The translations under genes and the position numbers were made by a program. 43,919 bases of DNA from a virus. Taxonomy: Duplodnaviria > Heunggongvirae > Uroviricota > Caudoviricetes. Every line of letters begins with the position of its first letter. The first letter of the stretch is position 1. The stretch is from the IMG/VR virus record IMGVR_UViG_3300033076_001232, positions 206,435-250,353 of that record. One strand, 5' to 3'. Shown here in pieces: positions 13,581 through 43,919 of this stretch. The notes under the pieces were generated by a model. That model was given only the letters and a program-made list of their open reading frames with translations, had not been told where the DNA came from and did not search any database.

Positions 13581-14645
13581 ATGAAATACGATTTAGACAC
13601 ATTGAATAAGTATATCGAGAATGGACTCTTAGAAAAGAATTCTCATCCGGAACTTCCTCTTGATATTTACAACTATTCAAGAGAGTGTCAGTTCACTAAA
13701 AGCTGGGACGATATCACTCTTAACATGCGGGGTACAGTTTTAGATAGAGAGGGTAACATCGTAGCTAGGGCTTTTCCAAAGTTCTTCAATATGGAAGAGC
13801 ACGATCAAAAAGACATACCAAACGAACCATTCGAAGCCTTCGAAAAGATGGACGGTTCTCTTGGAATTCTATTTAACTATAACGGGGAATGGCACTTAGC
13901 TACTAAAGGATCTTTCGTTTCGGATCAGTCAATTAAGGGTAAAGAAATCTTGGAGAAGTATGATTATAAGAGATTATCTCCGGATTGCACCTATCTTTTC
14001 GAGATCATCTATCCAGAGAATCGTATAGTAGTTAGTTATGATTATGAGGATCTTGTACTTCTAGCAATCATCAACAACAAGGATGGACACGAGTATGACA
14101 TACATTCTGATATCTTAGATACTCTGAATTTCAAATTGGTTAAAAAGTATCACGGGGTTGATGATTACAAGAAGCTCAAGTCTATCATAGAAGATAATTC
14201 AGAGGGATTTGTAATCCGATTCAAATCCGGCTTCCGAATGAAAATAAAAGGGGAAGAATATGTTAGACTTCATCGACTGATTACAAACTTTTCGAACGTT
14301 GATATCTGGGAAACACTTAAAGAGGGGAAAGATCTTAACCTGTTTTTAGATAGAGTTCCTGATGAGTTTGATGCTTGGGTAAGAAAAACGATGAACTCCA
14401 TACTCACTCACTATCAAAGATTAGAATCACAGGTTGAAAAAATATACGAATACCACATGTGGGGTAAATTCGGAGATAAGGAACCAGTGAGAGACAAAAA
14501 AGAATATGCAGAATGGGTTAAGACTCAGAACAAAGTGATACAGCCTATTCTATTTAAAATGTACGATGGCGGAGACTATTCTCATTATCTTTGGAGAATA
14601 GTTAGACCGGAGTATCAAAAGCCATTTTGGAATAAAGAAGATTAA
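13581..14645 (+). CDS. RNA ligase 1 family (T4 RnlA-like)
   Basis: AFPKFFN, motif I EKMDGSL, ATKGSF, FEII, motif IV EGFV, motif V KIKG. Confidence 0.9.
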   Translation: MKYDLDTLNKYIENGLLEKNSHPELPLDIYNYSRECQFTKSWDDITLNMRGTVLDREGNIVARAFPKFFNMEEHDQKDIPNEPFEAFEKMDGSLGILFNYNGEWHLATKGSFVSDQSIKGKEILEKYDYKRLSPDCTYLFEIIYPENRIVVSYDYEDLVLLAIINNKDGHEYDIHSDILDTLNFKLVKKYHGVDDYKKLKSIIEDNSEGFVIRFKSGFRMKIKGEEYVRLHRLITNFSNVDIWETLKEGKDLNLFLDRVPDEFDAWVRKTMNSILTHYQRLESQVEKIYEYHMWGKFGDKEPVRDKKEYAEWVKTQNKVIQPILFKMYDGGDYSHYLWRIVRPEYQKPFWNKED

Positions 14646-20370: not shown

Positions 20371-21513
20371 ATGGAAAGAAAATTAGCATCCATACAGAAA
20401 ATTAGGGAGATACTCCCGATCGAAGGAGCAGACGCTATCGAATTAGCTGTTGTAAACTCCTGGAAGGTTGTAACTAAAAAAGGTGAATTTGAACCGGGAG
20501 ATCTTTGTGTATACTTCGAGATAGATTCATTTCTTCCGATGGAAAAAGACTTTGAATTTCTCAGAAAATCATCTTATAAAAAGATGGGCGATCTGGAGGG
20601 ATTCAGATTGAAGACAATCCGATTAAGAGGACAGGTTTCGCAGGGTCTTTGTTTGCCTCTAAGCATTCTTGAAAAGGATGACGAAATGAAAATAGGAATT
20701 AGCAAACAACCTTGGGGTGATCAGCTTCAGCTTGGTCCTTACGATGATGCAATAGTTATCGAAGAGGGAACTGATGTTACTGAATACATGTGTGTATTAA
20801 AATACGAGCCACCAATCCCAGCAGAACTATCAGGGAAGGTTAAAGGAGGATTCCCTGGATTCATCAGAAAAACCGACGAGGAAAGAATTCAAAATATGAC
20901 TGGACATTTCGAAAGAATGAAGTCAGAGAAATACTATGTAACGGAAAAGCTTGACGGTAGCTCTGCAACATACTATTTCAGAGACGGAGTTTTCGGAGTT
21001 TGCTCTAGAAACTTAGAGCTAGCAGATCCAGGAGAATTTGTACCAGGTACAGTTCTTTGCGAAGATGGTGTGGAAAGACCCAAGAAAGAAAACACGTTCT
21101 GGAAGGTTGCTAAAGAATTGTTCATCGAAGAAAAATTAGGAACTCTGGAGCAAAACTATGCAATTCAAGGAGAATTGATCGGTGAAGGAATTCAGGGAAA
21201 TCCATACAGGATCAAAGGTCACACTGTAAGAATTTTCAACGTGTTTAATATTGACACTCAGGAATACCTTGGACTAGAAGAAATGCGAGAATTTCTGGGT
21301 AAAATCAATGTTGATTCCAATCCAATTGAAATGGTTCCAATCCTATTCGAGGATTACACTCTACCAGAAACCATAGAAGAGATACTATCTCAGGCGGAAG
21401 GGAAATCGGTTTTAAACTCAGGGACAGAGAGGGAAGGAATAGTTATTCGAAATAGAGACAAGTCAATTTCTTTCAAAGCGATATCTAATAACTTTCTACT
21501 GAAAGAAAAATAG
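20371..21513 (+). CDS. RNA ligase, DRB0094/Rnl2-like family
   Basis: RKLASIQKI..I.PIEGADAIE, YFEIDSFLP, LRGQVSQGL, KTDEERIQN, EKLDGSS, CSRN, QGELIG, EGIV, FKAIS. Confidence 0.9.
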   Translation: MERKLASIQKIREILPIEGADAIELAVVNSWKVVTKKGEFEPGDLCVYFEIDSFLPMEKDFEFLRKSSYKKMGDLEGFRLKTIRLRGQVSQGLCLPLSILEKDDEMKIGISKQPWGDQLQLGPYDDAIVIEEGTDVTEYMCVLKYEPPIPAELSGKVKGGFPGFIRKTDEERIQNMTGHFERMKSEKYYVTEKLDGSSATYYFRDGVFGVCSRNLELADPGEFVPGTVLCEDGVERPKKENTFWKVAKELFIEEKLGTLEQNYAIQGELIGEGIQGNPYRIKGHTVRIFNVFNIDTQEYLGLEEMREFLGKINVDSNPIEMVPILFEDYTLPETIEEILSQAEGKSVLNSGTEREGIVIRNRDKSISFKAISNNFLLKEK

Positions 21514-25097: not shown

Positions 25098-26246
25098 ATG
25101 ATTTTAAATTTTCAAAGATATCTAAATGAATCCATAGAATCAGAAATGAGGGTACCGGATTACATAGAAAAAATAGCAGGCATATATTCTAAAAAAGGAA
25201 GAGCACTTTATGTTGTCGGAGGAGCAGTTAGAGATCATCTTTTAGGAAAAACACCTAAGGATTTTGATTTGGCAACAGATGCTACTCCCGACGAGTCAAT
25301 CGATATGCTTTCACCCTACTATAAAGTATTGGAGGTCGGTAAAGCCTTTGGGGTTATTAAGGTTATGGTTCCGGAGGATCCGGAAGGAGTAGAGATTGCT
25401 ACTTTCAGAGAGGAGACATATAAGGATACCAGAAGACCAGATTCGGTTAAATACTCCTCGATCGATAAAGATGTCATGAGAAGGGATTTAACTGTAAATG
25501 CTCTTTTCTATGATATAAAGGGAGGTAGGATAGTCGATCTTGTCGGAGGGATAAAAGATATTGAAGGTGGACTGATAAGAACAGTCGGAAATCCATCTGA
25601 AAGATTTTCAGAGGATCCACTTAGAAAATTAAGAGCCGTAAGATTTGCTTCTAAATTGGGATCGAAGATAGATCCAGAAACACATAAATCACTTTTAACC
25701 GATCCGGTTTTTCATAACATCTCAGTTGAAAGAATCAGAGACGAGTTTATGAAGATATTAACCAGCTCAAATGACGTTGGTGAATCTATAAACATGCTGC
25801 AGTCCTATAACATGTTATCCCAAGTATTTCCAAATCTAGAGATAGAGACAAATTCTTGGTCAGAAGAACATCCATTGGTTACTGTTGCTCTGATGCTCAA
25901 GTCAAATCCTATAGATAAGATAGAAAGAGAATTAAATAAACTCTCATGGACATCTGACGAGATAGCTAAAATTTGTTTCTTGATAAGACTTCTAACATTA
26001 TCAGAGGATAATGTATACGAACTCAGAAAAAAGATGGATGTTATAAAGTTTACTGATGTGGATGAAATTATTGACTTTGCTAATTTGTCGGGGGCAGATC
26101 AGAATTTAATTTCAGCATTCTTAGAATATAGACCTAGCATCTCAAGCAAGGATCTCATGGATCAAGGTTTTAAAGGACCTGAATTAGGGAGGGAAATCAA
26201 AAAGAGAGAAGGCTTGGAATTTAAAAAGATCCTCGATAAAAGATAG
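25098..26246 (+). CDS. cca: CCA-adding tRNA nucleotidyltransferase (class II) with capsid-targeting-like leader
   Basis: YVVGGAVRD, KDFDLATD, EIATFR, DVMRRDLTVNAL, RFSEDPLRKLRAVRF, SVERIRDE; no HD domain; leader MILNFQRYLNE-S. Confidence 0.85.
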   Translation: MILNFQRYLNESIESEMRVPDYIEKIAGIYSKKGRALYVVGGAVRDHLLGKTPKDFDLATDATPDESIDMLSPYYKVLEVGKAFGVIKVMVPEDPEGVEIATFREETYKDTRRPDSVKYSSIDKDVMRRDLTVNALFYDIKGGRIVDLVGGIKDIEGGLIRTVGNPSERFSEDPLRKLRAVRFASKLGSKIDPETHKSLLTDPVFHNISVERIRDEFMKILTSSNDVGESINMLQSYNMLSQVFPNLEIETNSWSEEHPLVTVALMLKSNPIDKIERELNKLSWTSDEIAKICFLIRLLTLSEDNVYELRKKMDVIKFTDVDEIIDFANLSGADQNLISAFLEYRPSISSKDLMDQGFKGPELGREIKKREGLEFKKILDKR

Positions 26247-42253: not shown

Positions 42254-42370
42254 TAGTCAGGACAGGATTCGAACCTGTGTTTACACTTTACTTGTATTAG
42301 CTGTGTCCGATAGATTGGGTACCAATACATTTCCCTCCCCACCTGCTCTAAACCACTGAGCTACCTGACT
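42254..42370 (-). ncRNA. tRNA-like element 1 (117 nt) with 65-nt insert replacing anticodon/variable arms
   Basis: Acceptor AGTCAGG/CCTGACT plus discriminator A, TA, D-arm GCTC-AGTGGTTTA-GAGC, T-arm ACAGG-TTCGAAT-CCTGT; no canonical anticodon arm; no encoded CCA. Confidence 0.8.
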
Positions 42371-42378
42371 TAAGATTA

Positions 42379-42951
42379 TTATCTAATCTTTGCCATCATT
42401 TCTTTCAACTGTTTCTCGGTCTCAACATTGATAATGGTCAATCTACTAACTGGTTTTGAGAATGATAACGGTACCGTAGAAACCATGTAGTGCATGTTAT
42501 GTTCAATATAGATATCTTCAGGGGTAAATCCAAAGACCGCATCCCCATTGGTTCCATATGAACCGTCTTCAGCAGGGCTTGGTAATACGTGTTGTCCCCA
42601 CCCATCACCAGAATGAGGTGATGTATAAGTTACAATTTGTTCGGTATTGGTGAGTTGCGAGTTGACTGAAGATACCTTATTAACTTGGTAGTACCCAATT
42701 GGTTCTCCCACACCTTCAACAAACACGTACATGTAAAAAGAAATAGTTCTATCATTCTGTAACTTAAATCGTTTGATTAGGTTATCTCTCTCCAATGACC
42801 ATGAAATTTTTGGTGCTGGCTGAATAGCGTTCAGGTCTCTTTGATTAGCTTCCGTTTTCTTTTGCTCATCTAAAGCGGAAGTGTTTTCTAATTCTCGGTC
42901 GCATGATGTTATAACAAACATCAATACTAAAATTGCTAATAATCTTTTCAT
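42379..42951 (-). CDS. putative lipoprotein, conserved phage family
   Basis: MKRLLAILVLMFVITS-C-DRE; PAEDGSYGTN motif. Confidence 0.7.
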   Translation of the reverse strand: MKRLLAILVLMFVITSCDRELENTSALDEQKKTEANQRDLNAIQPAPKISWSLERDNLIKRFKLQNDRTISFYMYVFVEGVGEPIGYYQVNKVSSVNSQLTNTEQIVTYTSPHSGDGWGQHVLPSPAEDGSYGTNGDAVFGFTPEDIYIEHNMHYMVSTVPLSFSKPVSRLTIINVETEKQLKEMMAKIR

Positions 42952-42954
42952 GTT

Positions 42955-43350
42955 TTAGTTATTACAGTTAAATTCTTGGTTACTTAATTGATATGGTAAA
43001 CTACTTGACTTCCATAATGATCGGCCCCACATCTTTGACTTCGCATTATACTCCTCAATCCATCTGTTAAGGTTTGTTCTTAAAGCCAAAATTCTTTGTG
43101 CTTTGCTGAACTGACTGAACATAGGATCGGTGTCAGGAACATCCTTCATGTTACAAATATCTGTGTTTAATTTTACACAGGTATTGTAAATTTCTTGATA
43201 CTCTTCGTAGTGAATCACTGCGGTATCAATTTTAGTAGCCTCACGTACTTTGTGTACAATGTAACTAACTGCAGATAAGACCAGCGTTAATCCAATGATC
43301 CAGTAAATAATCTTTTTTACGAATCTTTTTTCTTCTTGAAATTCATCCAT
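42955..43350 (-). CDS. single-TM helical membrane protein
   Basis: TM IIYWIIGLTLVLSAVSYIV; C-terminal EEYNAKSKM..RSLWKSSSLPYQL. Confidence 0.7.
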   Translation of the reverse strand: MDEFQEEKRFVKKIIYWIIGLTLVLSAVSYIVHKVREATKIDTAVIHYEEYQEIYNTCVKLNTDICNMKDVPDTDPMFSQFSKAQRILALRTNLNRWIEEYNAKSKMWGRSLWKSSSLPYQLSNQEFNCNN

Positions 43351-43453
43351 TTTTTTCTTTTTTTTAGTTAGTAAAAATCCCAGTCTTTCCGGGGAGTCAG
43401 CTATTTAGTGTACGTTTAAAAGGTCGTTTAGCATAGCTGCCGTTCTTTCCTTG

Positions 43454-43573
43454 TAGTCAGGACAGGATTCGAACCTGTGATAGATACCATCAGCTGTGGA
43501 CGCAGTATCTCCGTGAGTCCCGTTGGCATTGTTACTCTCCACTTTCGGGGCGTGTTCCTATCGCCACCTGACT
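43454..43573 (-). ncRNA. tRNA-like element 2 (120 nt) with 71-nt insert
   Basis: Same acceptor AGTCAGG/CCTGACT-A and T-arm ACAGG-TTCGAAT-CCTGT; TG, D-arm GCG-ATAGGAACA-CGC; insert has CCCG/CGGG and AGATAC/GTATCT stems. Confidence 0.8.
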
Positions 43574-43580
43574 ATTTGTT

Positions 43581-43820
43581 TTATTTAGATAATTCAAATT
43601 GATAAACACAACTTTGATTTCCCGATTCATTCCTCACTAAATAATCGTGTCTTCCCGTTTCAATTATCGTGACAGTTTCACCTGATATAAATCCAGTGTT
43701 TTCAGTGTAACAAAAATGAATCCTGCATTTGTCACCGATCTTAAATCGTTGCTGGATTGGTGTTGAATAACCCCAATTGTTGTCAACCAATTTTAATAAT
43801 TTCCAAAGTAACTTTTTCAT
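43581..43820 (-). CDS. 79-aa hypothetical protein, possible SH3/KOW-like barrel
   Basis: FKIGDKCRI...GETVTIIE...YLV; start MKKLLWK at 43820 since the longer track start runs through the tRNA-like element. Confidence 0.65.
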   Translation of the reverse strand: MKKLLWKLLKLVDNNWGYSTPIQQRFKIGDKCRIHFCYTENTGFISGETVTIIETGRHDYLVRNESGNQSCVYQFELSK

Positions 43821-43834
43821 AATTTTAATTTTTG

Positions 43835-43919
43835 TAGTCAGAACAGGATTCGAACCTGCATGATTTAGTTTCTCTATTTGTAATGTGTTTAGATAGCACA
43901 AAACATCTTAGCGTCTACC
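43835..43919 (-). ncRNA. tRNA-like element 3 (5' part outside window) with 51-nt insert
   Basis: 3' acceptor TCTGACT-A, T-arm GCAGG-TTCGAAT-CCTGT, D-arm end GGTAGA-CGC. Confidence 0.7.

What the first reader, a model, noticed from the sequence alone, without database searches (positions are those of the whole stretch)
42254..43919. Family of tRNA-like RNAs with a constant top half and hypervariable oversized cargo in place of the anticodon arm
Seen: three minus-strand elements share the 3' block (A/G)CAGG-TTCGAAT-CCTGT-(C/T)CTGACT-A-CAA. The two complete ones share the 5' strand AGTCAGG and have intact but different D-arms. Between D- and T-arm, where a class I tRNA has about 22 nt, they carry unrelated inserts of 65, 71 and 51 nt with their own stems (TGTATTGG/CTAATACA in 1; CCCG/CGGG and AGATAC/GTATCT in 2) and no 5-bp stem with 7-nt loop. 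Established: the acceptor stem/T-arm half is what RNase P, RNase Z, CCA enzymes and EF-Tu recognise, and the anticodon loop is the target of anticodon nucleases such as PrrC and RloC. Inference: these are not decoding tRNAs but a tRNA scaffold that delivers variable RNA payloads (antisense guides, protein decoys, nuclease sponges or ribosome/EF-Tu binders).
Basis: partly seen in the sequence, partly recalled or inferred. Interest (0 to 1): 0.9.

Follow-up and report, generated by a model that had tools for sequence, protein, structure and literature searches.

The report
Anticodon-less phage tRNA-shaped RNAs, swappable inserts
The end of this 250-kb phage genome carries three genes for RNAs that keep the ends and elbow of a tRNA but hold unrelated 51-70-nt inserts where the anticodon arm should be; they belong to a large, apparently undescribed phage RNA family in which related phages exchange the insert, so the tRNA shape is used for something other than decoding.

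Summary
Observation confirmed. Three co-oriented minus-strand elements share AGTCAGG...(A/G)CAGGTTCGAATCCTGT(C/T)CTGACT-A-CAA. They are E1 (42254-42370), E2 (43454-43573) and E3 (43835-43919, cut by the contig end). None has a usable anticodon arm: ARAGORN finds no tRNA, while Rfam's tRNA model scores E1 at 47 bits with a 61-nt gap.

They belong to a family with the same 3' block in at least 120 viral contigs: 216 unique elements and 189 unrelated insert types. It is absent from cellular tRNA sets and from 50,697 GenBank phage records. I found no paper describing it.

Each window insert has an orthologue elsewhere (89-98% identical) in non-homologous surroundings, with compensatory stem changes. 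Conversely, related contigs with about 90% identical flanks carry at least five unrelated inserts at one site. Flanking signals (U at -1, C at +1, no encoded CCA) equal those of genuine tRNA genes in the same loci.

Best reading: non-decoding RNAs matured by the tRNA pathway, with the exchangeable insert as the working part. What the inserts bind is unknown, and expression could not be tested. No protein partner, shared motif, Rfam match or antisense target was found.

This scan found the same family before in at least eight other genomes.

The parts
42254..42370 (-). E1: complete 117-nt tRNA-shaped RNA gene (acceptor, class I D-arm, 66-nt insert, T-arm, discriminator A; genome continues CAA)
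   Evidence: Rfam tRNA 47.1 bits (gathering 29) with 61 nt in place of the 17-nt anticodon arm. The unconstrained minimum-energy fold recovers acceptor, D and T stems. ARAGORN default finds no tRNA.
42364..42370 (-). E1 acceptor 5' strand AGTCAGG
   Evidence: Pairs with CCTGACT at 42255-42261. Orthologues vary only through G-U-compatible changes.
42345..42361 (-). E1 D-arm GCTC-AGTGGTTTA-GAGC (class I type, G18G19 present)
42279..42344 (-). E1 insert: extended arm GGTGG-GGA-GGG / 13-nt loop / CCC-AAT-CTATC in the anticodon-stem position, then a roughly 30-nt variable-arm-like segment (ACAC...GTGT)
   Evidence: Pair probability 0.85. Pair 32/60 of alignment A1 is G-C in 4 sequences, G-U in 1 and A-U in 1. 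The insert is 96% conserved in six aligned sequences from six contigs; eight contigs carry this type.
42254..42278 (-). E1 T-arm ACAGG-TTCGAAT-CCTGT, acceptor 3' strand CCTGACT, discriminator A
43454..43573 (-). E2: complete 120-nt tRNA-shaped RNA gene with degenerate Leu-like D-arm (GGCG-ATAGGAACA-CGCC) and 70-nt insert (43479-43548)
   Evidence: Rfam tRNA 27.6 bits, just under the gathering score of 29. The orthologue L142:6456-6575 has an identical insert, a T stem ACCGG/CCGGT (compensatory) and discriminator T.
43835..43919 (-). E3: 3' 85 nt of a third element (GGTAGACGC of a tRNA-Leu-type D-arm, 51-nt insert at 43860-43910, T-arm GCAGG-TTCGAAT-CCTGT, TCTGACT-A), cut by the contig end
   Evidence: The full-length orthologue at L151 5744-5846 starts AGTCAGGTGGCGGAATGGTAGACGC, has a 94% identical insert and a T stem ACAAG/CTTGT (compensatory).
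43371..43393 (-). Terminator-like hairpin CCCGG-AAAGA-CTGGG followed by ATTTTT, 60 nt downstream of E2 (possible end of the E3-ORF-E2 transcript)
   Evidence: consensus match only
43581..43820 (-). Context: 79-aa ORF between E3 and E2, same strand, no Pfam family
42379..43350 (-). Context: two co-oriented ORFs between E2 and E1. One is 131 aa. The other is 190 aa with a lipoprotein-like N-terminus (MKRLLAILVLMFVITSC). The second stops 8 nt before E1.

Best explanation
E1, E2 and E3 are genes for non-decoding, tRNA-shaped small RNAs of a widespread phage family. They are transcribed with the neighbouring genes and are most likely cut out and finished by the ordinary tRNA maturation pathway: RNase P at the 5' end, 3' trimming, then CCA completion by the host enzyme or this phage's own. 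The constant acceptor, D-loop/T-loop elbow and T-arm act as a processing and stability chassis. The insert that replaces the anticodon and variable arms is the working, exchangeable module, a folded RNA that most plausibly binds a host or phage macromolecule. Phages swap these modules by recombination.

Shown: the tRNA-like architecture without an anticodon arm; the family and its breadth; selection on both scaffold and insert structure; tRNA-type flanking signals; module exchange.

Inferred: expression, processing, CCA addition, possible leucylation, and any binding or decoy activity of the inserts.
For: Architecture:
- Rfam tRNA matches carry 61- and 63-nt gaps at the anticodon arm. ARAGORN finds no tRNA in the window or the genome.
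- Only 9 of 216 family members have any 5-bp/7-nt hairpin with U33 and R37.

Family:
- The 24-nt 3' block occurs in at least 120 viral contigs. There are 216 unique elements of 56-196 nt, falling into 189 insert clusters of which 171 are singletons.
- Near-complete phage genomes of 65-322 kb hold 1-5 clustered copies, always on one strand.

Not a cellular tRNA: there are 18 hits in 185,579 species genomes, all in metagenome-assembled contigs. Every one whose 5' part is readable is an anticodon-less member.

Selection on structure:
- The E2 and E3 orthologues have compensatory T-stem changes.
- The E1 insert helix shows G-C, G-U and A-U at one pair.
- The acceptor variant GGTCGGT/ACCGACT differs by two compensatory pairs.
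- Insert clusters carry compensatory changes.
- Insert cores fold better than shuffles (mean z -0.63, n=167). GNRA-closed hairpins number 39 against 20.5 +/- 4.5 in shuffles.

Processing context is the same as for genuine tRNA genes of the same loci:
- U at -1: 84% against 69%.
- C at +1: 97% against 99%.
- A at +3: 70% against 69%.
- CCA encoded: 5 of 198 against 12 of 169.

All recurrent neighbour ORFs are co-oriented with the nearest element.

Modularity:
- Window ORFs next to E1 and E2 have no homologues in the loci that carry the E1 and E2 orthologues.
- Of 76 insert-similar pairs, 58 share neither flank. Of 34 pairs with both 200-nt flanks similar, 20 have unrelated inserts.
- In an alignment of five such contigs, flanks and scaffold ends are conserved and the interior cannot be aligned.
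- Extra sequence sits only where tRNAs tolerate it: the anticodon/variable region, or the D-loop in 4 members.
Against: No function can be assigned to any insert:
- No Rfam family matches.
- No motif is shared among inserts.
- No antisense target was found.
- No linked protein was found: no protein family occurs in more than 18 of 146 loci.

Other weaknesses:
- Fold stability of the inserts is only modestly above shuffles, and E3's insert is AT-rich and weakly structured at -4.9 kcal/mol.
- Covariation within the E1 type is statistically weak because the sequences are 96% identical (173 of 500 shuffles reach the observed value).
- One E1 orthologue, L129, has a T-stem indel and an acceptor mismatch, so some copies do decay.
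- My descriptor required perfect stems, so family-wide pairing counts are biased. A looser scan was noisy, at 72-90% paired.
Confidence: 0.55

Rival explanations
1. The scaffold, not the insert, is the active part. The RNAs are anticodon-less mimics of tRNA-Leu that occupy tRNA-binding proteins, such as LeuRS, EF-Tu, CCA enzyme or tRNA-targeting defence nucleases. Because they lack a cleavable or decodable anticodon loop, they act as sponges or non-cleavable competitors. The inserts are tolerated filler.
For: The scaffold sequence is nearly invariant across very different phages: acceptor positions are 93-100% identical and U8 is 97% conserved. Genuine tRNAs in the same loci share any one acceptor at most 5 times.

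The family keeps the bacterial LeuRS determinants: A73 in 195 of 208, U8, A14, G18G19 and an intact T-loop. For bacterial LeuRS the anticodon arm is dispensable for charging (PMC2377443).

The window also encodes T4 Rnl1-like and Rnl2-like RNA ligases and a CCA enzyme, which is a tRNA-repair gene set.
Against: Filler would not be conserved at 89-98% identity across unrelated contexts, nor carry compensatory changes.

Very short versions are rare: 27 of 216 are 76 nt or less.

E1 lacks the Leu-type D-arm, and the E2 orthologue has discriminator T.
Confidence: 0.15
2. The elements are processing and stability signals for polycistronic phage mRNAs ('tRNA punctuation'). RNase P and 3' processing at the elements cut the transcript between genes, and the excised RNA itself has no function.
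For: The elements lie between co-oriented ORFs. E1 starts 8 nt after a stop codon and is followed 17 nt later by the next ATG, and E3 is followed 15 nt later by an ATG. Co-orientation with recurrent neighbour ORFs is 100%. The flanking signals are of tRNA type.
Against: Punctuation needs only a minimal tRNA shape. It does not explain 50-130-nt structured inserts, their conservation as types, or their replacement at fixed sites.

Genuine tRNAs in the same arrays could already serve this purpose.
Confidence: 0.1
3. The function is at DNA level. The constant ends are homology arms or targets for recombination or homing, which shuffles neighbouring small genes in a hyperplastic region. The tRNA likeness is a relic.
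For: Homology breaks at the element borders. In-situ replacement occurs between conserved ends. GIY-YIG and T5orf172 homing-type nucleases are among the commonest neighbours, in 11 and 9 loci, as with segB in the T4 tRNA cluster.
Against: Compensatory and G-U-compatible changes in acceptor and T stems, and conserved tertiary-interaction nucleotides, show selection at the RNA level. No nuclease is consistently linked. What is replaced is the interior of the element, not the genes between elements.
Confidence: 0.07
4. They are real decoding tRNAs interrupted by introns, or carrying giant variable arms, that become functional after splicing. For example, E1 would be tRNA-Ser(GGA) with a 29-nt intron.
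For: ARAGORN in intron mode returns tRNA-Ser(gga) with an intron at position 31/32 for E1. A few family members do carry a canonical anticodon arm, for example L045, 71 nt, with loop CUUUUAA, Lys-UUU type.
Against: The ARAGORN solution needs a G-G mismatch, a non-canonical intron position and an unpaired variable arm. It also conflicts with the covarying helix GGTGG/C(C/U)AUC.

With the ARAGORN score threshold lowered (-ps80, introns up to 150 nt allowed) the same genome gives 481 calls, so relaxed intron-mode calls carry little weight.

The inserts are too short for group I introns and match no intron family. The shortest members have tetraloop hairpins and no anticodon loop at all.
Confidence: 0.03
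5. They are decaying pseudo-tRNAs with no function.
For: ARAGORN rejects them. E2 is below the Rfam threshold. L129 carries an indel.
Against: There are more than 200 copies with intact scaffolds, with conserved insert types, compensatory changes and preserved processing context.
Confidence: 0.03

Closest known systems
Phage T4 species 1 RNA (rnaC), a small stable RNA in the T4 tRNA cluster
   Same: It is encoded among phage tRNA genes on the same strand. Its 3' roughly 93 nt have a T-arm CCGGG-TTCGAAT-CCCGG and an acceptor helix ACGGAACG/CGUUUCGU but no usable anticodon arm. The genome reads A|CAA after the discriminator, as it does here. Rfam gives only a weak tRNA-Sec-like match of 17.5 bits. 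As far as I know (own knowledge), its function is still unknown.
   Different: There is no sequence relationship. T4 has a single copy with a 46-nt 5' extension. It is not built on a shared chassis and there is no evidence of insert exchange. The family here keeps one near-invariant scaffold with at least 189 insert types.
Class II bacterial or phage tRNA-Leu (Rfam RF00005)
   Same: The consensus 5' block GGUGGCGGAAU(U)GGUAGACGC is a tRNA-Leu D-arm; blastn of it hits annotated tRNA-Leu genes of cyanophage S-RIM4 and Caulobacter phage CcrBL9. A73, U8, A14, G18G19 and the T-loop are kept. These are the LeuRS determinants listed in PMC2377443.
   Different: There is no anticodon stem-loop and no standard variable arm. 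The acceptor and T-arm sequence occurs in no cellular genome as a tRNA. E1 has a class I D-arm.
tmRNA (its tRNA-like domain with a large internal insert)
   Same: Acceptor stem and T-arm are closed around a large non-tRNA interior, with no anticodon. This phage also encodes a genuine tmRNA elsewhere.
   Different: There is no G3-U70 (here U3-A70), no tag reading frame, no pseudoknot series, and the RNAs are about 120 nt rather than 350-490 nt. There is no RF00023 match.
Engineered tRNA scaffolds for recombinant RNA expression, and the tRNA-linked small RNAs (TMERs) of murine gammaherpesvirus 68 (both from my own knowledge, not checked here)
   Same: A tRNA body is used to obtain processing and stability for an unrelated RNA payload. 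In the engineered scaffolds the payload replaces the anticodon arm, exactly as here.
   Different: One is man-made and the other is eukaryotic, with the payload downstream of the tRNA-like part. Neither is a natural bacteriophage family with exchangeable inserts.
Bacterial Y RNA YrlA (tRNA-like module bound to Ro60/Rsr; PMC4201824)
   Same: It is a non-decoding RNA with a D-loop/T-loop tRNA mimic, and it also occurs in some phages.
   Different: In YrlA the tRNA-like module is internal and circularly permuted, and it goes with an rsr gene. This genome has no TROVE/Ro60 and no RtcB gene, and the elements gave no YrlA match in Rfam.

Membership tests
Canonical tRNA (Rfam RF00005) | 7-bp acceptor stem, discriminator, D-arm with G18G19, T-arm with UUCRANY loop | tested here: met
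   E1 and E2 have all of these. E3 has the D-arm 3' part, the T-arm and the acceptor 3' strand.
Canonical tRNA (Rfam RF00005) | 5-bp anticodon stem with a 7-nt loop (U33, anticodon, R37) between D-arm and variable region | tested here: not met
   ARAGORN default gives 0 tRNAs in the window and the whole genome. Rfam aligns 61 and 63 nt as an insertion in place of the arm. The only other 5-bp/7-nt hairpin is non-conserved and lacks U33.
Canonical tRNA (Rfam RF00005) | Score at or above the Rfam gathering threshold (29 bits) | tested here: inconclusive
   E1 scores 47.1 bits and passes. E2 scores 27.6 bits and fails. E3 is truncated and not scored.
Intron-containing tRNA (bacterial group I intron type or archaeal bulge-helix-bulge type) | Removing the insert leaves a standard anticodon arm; the intron has a group I core or sits at 37/38 in a bulge-helix-bulge motif | tested here: not met
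   Only a forced ARAGORN intron-mode solution exists for E1, with the intron at 31/32 and a G-G mismatch. With the score threshold also lowered (-ps80) the genome gives 481 calls. There is no intron family match. The solution conflicts with the covarying helix.
tmRNA (RF00023) | tRNA-like domain with G3-U70, tag ORF, pseudoknots, covariance-model match | tested here: not met
   Pair 3-70 is U-A, and the elements give no RF00023 match. The genome's real tmRNA lies elsewhere at 87.3 bits.
Y RNA / YrlA with Ro60 | Neighbouring or co-encoded Ro60 (TROVE) gene; permuted tRNA-like module; Rfam match | tested here: not met
   There is no TROVE and no RtcB in the 250-kb genome, and no Rfam match. The 5' and 3' ends form the acceptor stem, so the module is not permuted.
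Phage 'tRNA-Leu-chassis' family (undescribed; defined here and in earlier notes of this scan) | Acceptor AGUCAGG/CCUGACU, T-arm (A/G)CAGG-UUCGAAU-CCUGU, discriminator A, C at +1 without encoded CCA, non-tRNA insert between D- and T-arm | tested here: met
   All three elements meet this. The same block is in at least 120 viral contigs. The flank statistics match.
Phage 'tRNA-Leu-chassis' family (undescribed) | tRNA-Leu-type D-arm GGCGGAAU(U)GGUAGACGC | tested here: inconclusive
   E3 has GGTAGACGC and its orthologue has the full arm. E2 has a degenerate version, GGCGATAGGAACACGCC. E1 has a class I arm, a minority type: 6 of 216 start TAGCTC.
Substrate of leucyl-tRNA synthetase (works-like question) | A73, U8-A14, G18-U55, G19-C56 and a regular acceptor helix; actual charging | not testable with these tools
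   The sequence determinants are present (PMC2377443). Charging needs an aminoacylation assay.

The most novel reading that the evidence does not exclude
Phages maintain a natural library of tRNA-displayed RNAs. One near-invariant Leu-tRNA-like chassis is matured, and perhaps leucylated, by the host. It carries hundreds of different folded modules, each acting as a specific decoy or aptamer against a different host factor, for example a defence system. Modules are exchanged between phages by recombination within the constant arms. This would be an RNA counterpart of hypervariable anti-defence gene islands.
Probability: 0.3. Interest if true: 0.92.

Novelty: new variant of a known kind. Interest (0 to 1): 0.8.

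Why it matters
Phage tRNA genes are normally explained by codon supply or by escape from tRNA-cleaving defences. Here the tRNA shape is kept while the decoding part is discarded and replaced by a large, fast-turning-over set of structured inserts.

If the RNAs are expressed, this is a natural version of the tRNA-scaffold trick used in the laboratory to stabilise recombinant RNAs. It would also be a new class of phage small RNA, present in hundreds of uncultivated phages from 65-kb genomes to jumbo phages, probably of Bacteroidota.

It may finally give a handle on the function of the tRNA-like stable RNAs known in T4 since the 1970s.

In practice, these genes are missed or mislabelled by tRNA finders as 'tRNA-Undet' or with spurious isotypes, which distorts phage tRNA censuses. 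The inserts are also a pool of compact natural RNA folds.

Tried and rejected
- The 5' part of E3: the contig start is a repetitive coding sequence, not the continuation.
- Exact 20-mer of the E3 insert in viral contigs: 0 hits. An orthologue was found later by BLAST in a MAG contig.
- Known RNA families inside the inserts: none in the window or in 11 array loci.
- Linked protein partner: clustering 4,603 neighbouring ORFs gave no family in more than 18 of 146 loci. The top families are DUF932, large terminase, GIY-YIG, T5orf172 and a metallophosphatase.
- Fixed-distance ORF partner: none.
- Phage CCA-adding enzyme as a constant companion: rejected, found in 1 of 29 family-bearing records.
- Ro60 or RtcB link: absent.
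- Cellular origin of the scaffold: rejected.
- Cultured representative: none in 50,697 GenBank phage records. Tenacibaculum phage pT24 has only related odd tRNA-like genes.
- Shared insert motif: none; the top k-mers are D-arm remnants.
- Antisense targets or captured fragments: none outside other elements.
- Unbiased family-wide pairing count anchored on the D-arm: too noisy to use.
- ARAGORN with a lowered threshold and introns: 481 calls, uninformative.
- Literature: five full-text searches found no description of the family. PMC10690425 reports generic tRNA-like candidates in IMG/VR only.
Full report
**Where the window lies.** The window is the last 43.9 kb of a 250,353-bp linear IMG/VR virus record with 36% G+C and estimated 92% completeness. 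The finding lies at its very end.

**What is in the sequence.** Three elements sit on the minus strand.
- E1 (42254-42370, 117 nt) reads AGTCAGG-TA-GCTC-AGTGGTTTA-GAGC, then 66 nt, then ACAGG-TTCGAAT-CCTGT-CCTGACT-A.
- E2 (43454-43573, 120 nt) has the same ends, a degenerate D-arm and a 70-nt interior.
- E3 (43835-43919) begins in GGTAGACGC, the 3' part of a tRNA-Leu-type D-arm. It has a 51-nt interior and the ends GCAGG-TTCGAAT-CCTGT-TCTGACT-A.

E3 is cut by the contig end, and the contig start, a repetitive coding sequence, does not continue it. The array may therefore extend into the missing part of the genome.

**How tRNA finders treat them.**
- ARAGORN finds no tRNA in the window or the whole genome.
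- Rfam's tRNA model matches E1 at 47.1 bits and E2 at 27.6 bits (gathering score 29). In both it aligns acceptor, D and T parts and skips 61-63 nt where the 17-nt anticodon arm belongs.
- The unconstrained minimum-energy fold of E1 recovers the three scaffold helices.

- A tRNA-shape descriptor gave 411 hits in the fetched loci against 9 in reversed sequence.
- Of these, 208 carry the family acceptor. ARAGORN accepts only 42 of them, many with 2- or 4-nt 'anticodons', against 167 of 203 hits with other acceptors.
- Together with hits from MAG contigs there are 216 unique elements of 56-196 nt, median 103.
- The consensus is AGUCAGG-UG-GCGGAAU(U)GGUAGACGC, then a variable interior, then (U)ACAGGUUCGAAUCCUGUCCUGACUA.
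- The 5' block is a genuine tRNA-Leu D-arm; blastn of it hits annotated phage tRNA-Leu genes.
- The interiors fall into 189 clusters, 171 of them singletons, and share no motif.
- Only 9 of 216 have any hairpin resembling an anticodon arm. A few, such as a 71-nt L045 copy with loop CUUUUAA, do look decodable.
- Four members carry extra sequence in the D-loop instead. That is another site where tRNA structure tolerates additions.

**Not a host tRNA, not in cultured phages, not in the literature.**
- Among one genome for each of 185,579 prokaryote species the block occurs 18 times. All hits are in MAG contigs, about half labelled Bacteroidota lineages. Every one whose 5' part is readable is an anticodon-less member with its own insert.
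- In 50,697 GenBank phage records there is no full member.
- Tenacibaculum phage pT24 has two 'tRNA-Undet' genes and an odd 'tRNA-Pro' with the same T-arm.
- Five full-text searches found no description.
- Earlier notes of this scan report the same family in at least eight other genomes. These are leads, not evidence.

**Evidence that the RNA matters.** Each window insert has an orthologue.
- E1 type: seven other contigs, 89-93% identical by blastn over the element and 96% mean column identity in a six-sequence alignment.
- E2 type: L142, with an identical insert.
- E3 type: L151, 94% identical over 51 nt.

The scaffold stems of these orthologues change in a compensatory way. The T stem is ACAGG/CCUGU in E2 but ACCGG/CCGGU in L142. 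It is GCAGG/CCUGU in E3 but ACAAG/CUUGU in L151.

In the E1 type, the helix that occupies the anticodon-stem position (GGUGG/C(C/U)AUC) shows G-C, G-U and A-U at one pair, and 99.4% of cells are paired. The shuffle statistics are weak because the sequences are so alike.

Other insert clusters and the acceptor variant GGUCGGU/ACCGACU add further compensatory pairs. Insert cores fold somewhat better than dinucleotide shuffles (mean z -0.63). They are enriched about twofold in GNRA-closed hairpins and about sixfold in internal T-loop-like motifs; the sixfold figure rests on my own expectation of about 2.4 against 16 observed.

**Evidence that they are handled as tRNAs.** Positions around family members match those around genuine tRNA genes in the same loci:
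- U at -1: 84% against 69%.
- C at +1: 97% against 99%.
- A at +3: 70% against 69%.
- CCA encoded: 5 of 198 against 12 of 169.

So the 'A-CAA instead of A-CCA' feature is the normal gene structure of tRNAs in these phages, not a peculiarity of the elements. All recurrent neighbour ORFs are on the same strand as the nearest element. In the window the elements sit between co-oriented small ORFs, and a terminator-like hairpin follows E2.

**Evidence for modular exchange.**
- The ORFs next to E1 and E2 have no homologues in the loci that carry the orthologous RNAs; similarity is confined to the RNA gene.
- Across the family, 58 of 76 insert-similar pairs share neither flank. Of 34 pairs with both 200-nt flanks similar, 20 have unrelated interiors.
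- An alignment of five such contigs shows about 90% identical flanks, a conserved first 14-16 nt and last 26 nt of the element, and an interior that cannot be aligned. The replaced segment includes the D-arm.

**Context in this phage.** The window encodes a T4 Rnl1-like RNA ligase, an Rnl2-like ligase with a PHA02142 OB domain, and a CCA-adding enzyme. The nearest relatives of the CCA enzyme are in uncultured phages of about 600 kb. The genome has a true tmRNA but no canonical tRNA in the assembled part.

The CCA enzyme is not a general companion of the family: it occurs in 1 of 29 records. No Ro60 or RtcB is present, and no protein family is consistently linked. GIY-YIG and T5orf172 nucleases are common neighbours, as segB is in the T4 tRNA cluster.

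**Interpretation.** Most likely these are non-decoding RNAs that use the tRNA maturation pathway and the tRNA fold as a chassis, with the interior as the exchangeable working part.

The scaffold keeps the determinants that bacterial LeuRS uses: A73, U8-A14, G18-U55 and G19-C56. The anticodon arm is dispensable for charging (PMC2377443). Leucylation is therefore possible but untested.

The rival readings are a scaffold-only mimic or sponge, mRNA punctuation, DNA-level recombination arms, intron-bearing tRNAs, and pseudo-tRNAs. Each explains part of the data, but each fails on insert conservation, compensatory changes or the in-situ replacement pattern.

What the inserts bind remains unknown. 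I found no antisense target, no Rfam match and no shared motif.

**Closest precedent.** The closest known case is T4 species 1 RNA (rnaC). Read directly, its 3' roughly 93 nt have a T-arm, an acceptor helix, no anticodon arm, and A|CAA in the genome. There is no sequence relationship, and T4 shows no shared chassis or insert exchange.

Noticed in passing
G000:C1:145863-146354 (outside the window; L164 464-955): The phage encodes a genuine tmRNA of about 490 nt. Rfam RF00023 scores 87.3 bits, E 3.7e-34. ARAGORN reads the tag peptide as EEVELAVAA*.
   Followed up: partly
window 13581-14645 (+), 20371-21513 (+), 25098-26246 (+): A tRNA-repair and maturation gene set lies on the plus strand, within the upstream 30 kb of the window. 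It comprises a T4 Rnl1-like RNA ligase, an Rnl2-like ligase with a PHA02142 OB domain, and a CCA-adding enzyme (PolyA_pol head, 127.5 bits). The assembled genome has no canonical tRNA gene.
   Followed up: partly
L027, L057, L081, L100, L109, L112, L118 (alignment A2): One syntenic site in related contigs, with flanks about 90% identical, holds at least five unrelated interiors on the same scaffold ends. This is a hypervariable RNA locus.
   Followed up: yes
L045, minus-strand orientation offset 1216, 71 nt: A family-scaffold copy has a fully canonical anticodon arm (CCGAU-CUUUUAA-AUCGG, Lys-UUU type). The chassis is therefore sometimes combined with a decodable arm. UUU-Lys is the classic target of anticodon nucleases (own knowledge).
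   Followed up: no
L019 4124-4186 (+): A match to Rfam freshwater-1 RNA (RF02979) at 70.1 bits, just under its gathering score of 72, sits inside a phage array of tRNAs and family elements.
   Followed up: no
NC_049383.1 (Tenacibaculum phage pT24) 192032-192477; L163 4792-5237: A cultured jumbo phage of a Bacteroidota host has two 79-nt 'tRNA-Undet' genes and an odd 'tRNA-Pro' with the family's T-arm (CAGGTTCGA(A/G)TCCTG) but different acceptors. It is a possible experimental entry point.
   Followed up: partly
window 42379-42951 (-): The 190-aa ORF between E2 and E1 starts MKRLLAILVLMFVITSC, a lipoprotein-type signal, and has no Pfam family. Its stop lies 8 nt before E1.
   Followed up: no
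G000:C1:1-200 (outside the window): The contig begins inside a tandemly repetitive coding sequence: on the reverse-complement strand, repeated GATCC(G/A)CTAGATCC(T/A)(G/C).. units with a period of roughly 90 nt. This probably explains why the assembly broke there.
   Followed up: no
L013, L042, L056, L089, L142, L030 and others (one search list): The same loci hold further anticodon-less tRNA-shaped elements with other acceptor stems, for example GGTCGGT/ACCGACT at 137 nt and GACCGAG at 99 nt. The phenomenon is therefore wider than the one chassis sequence.
   Followed up: partly
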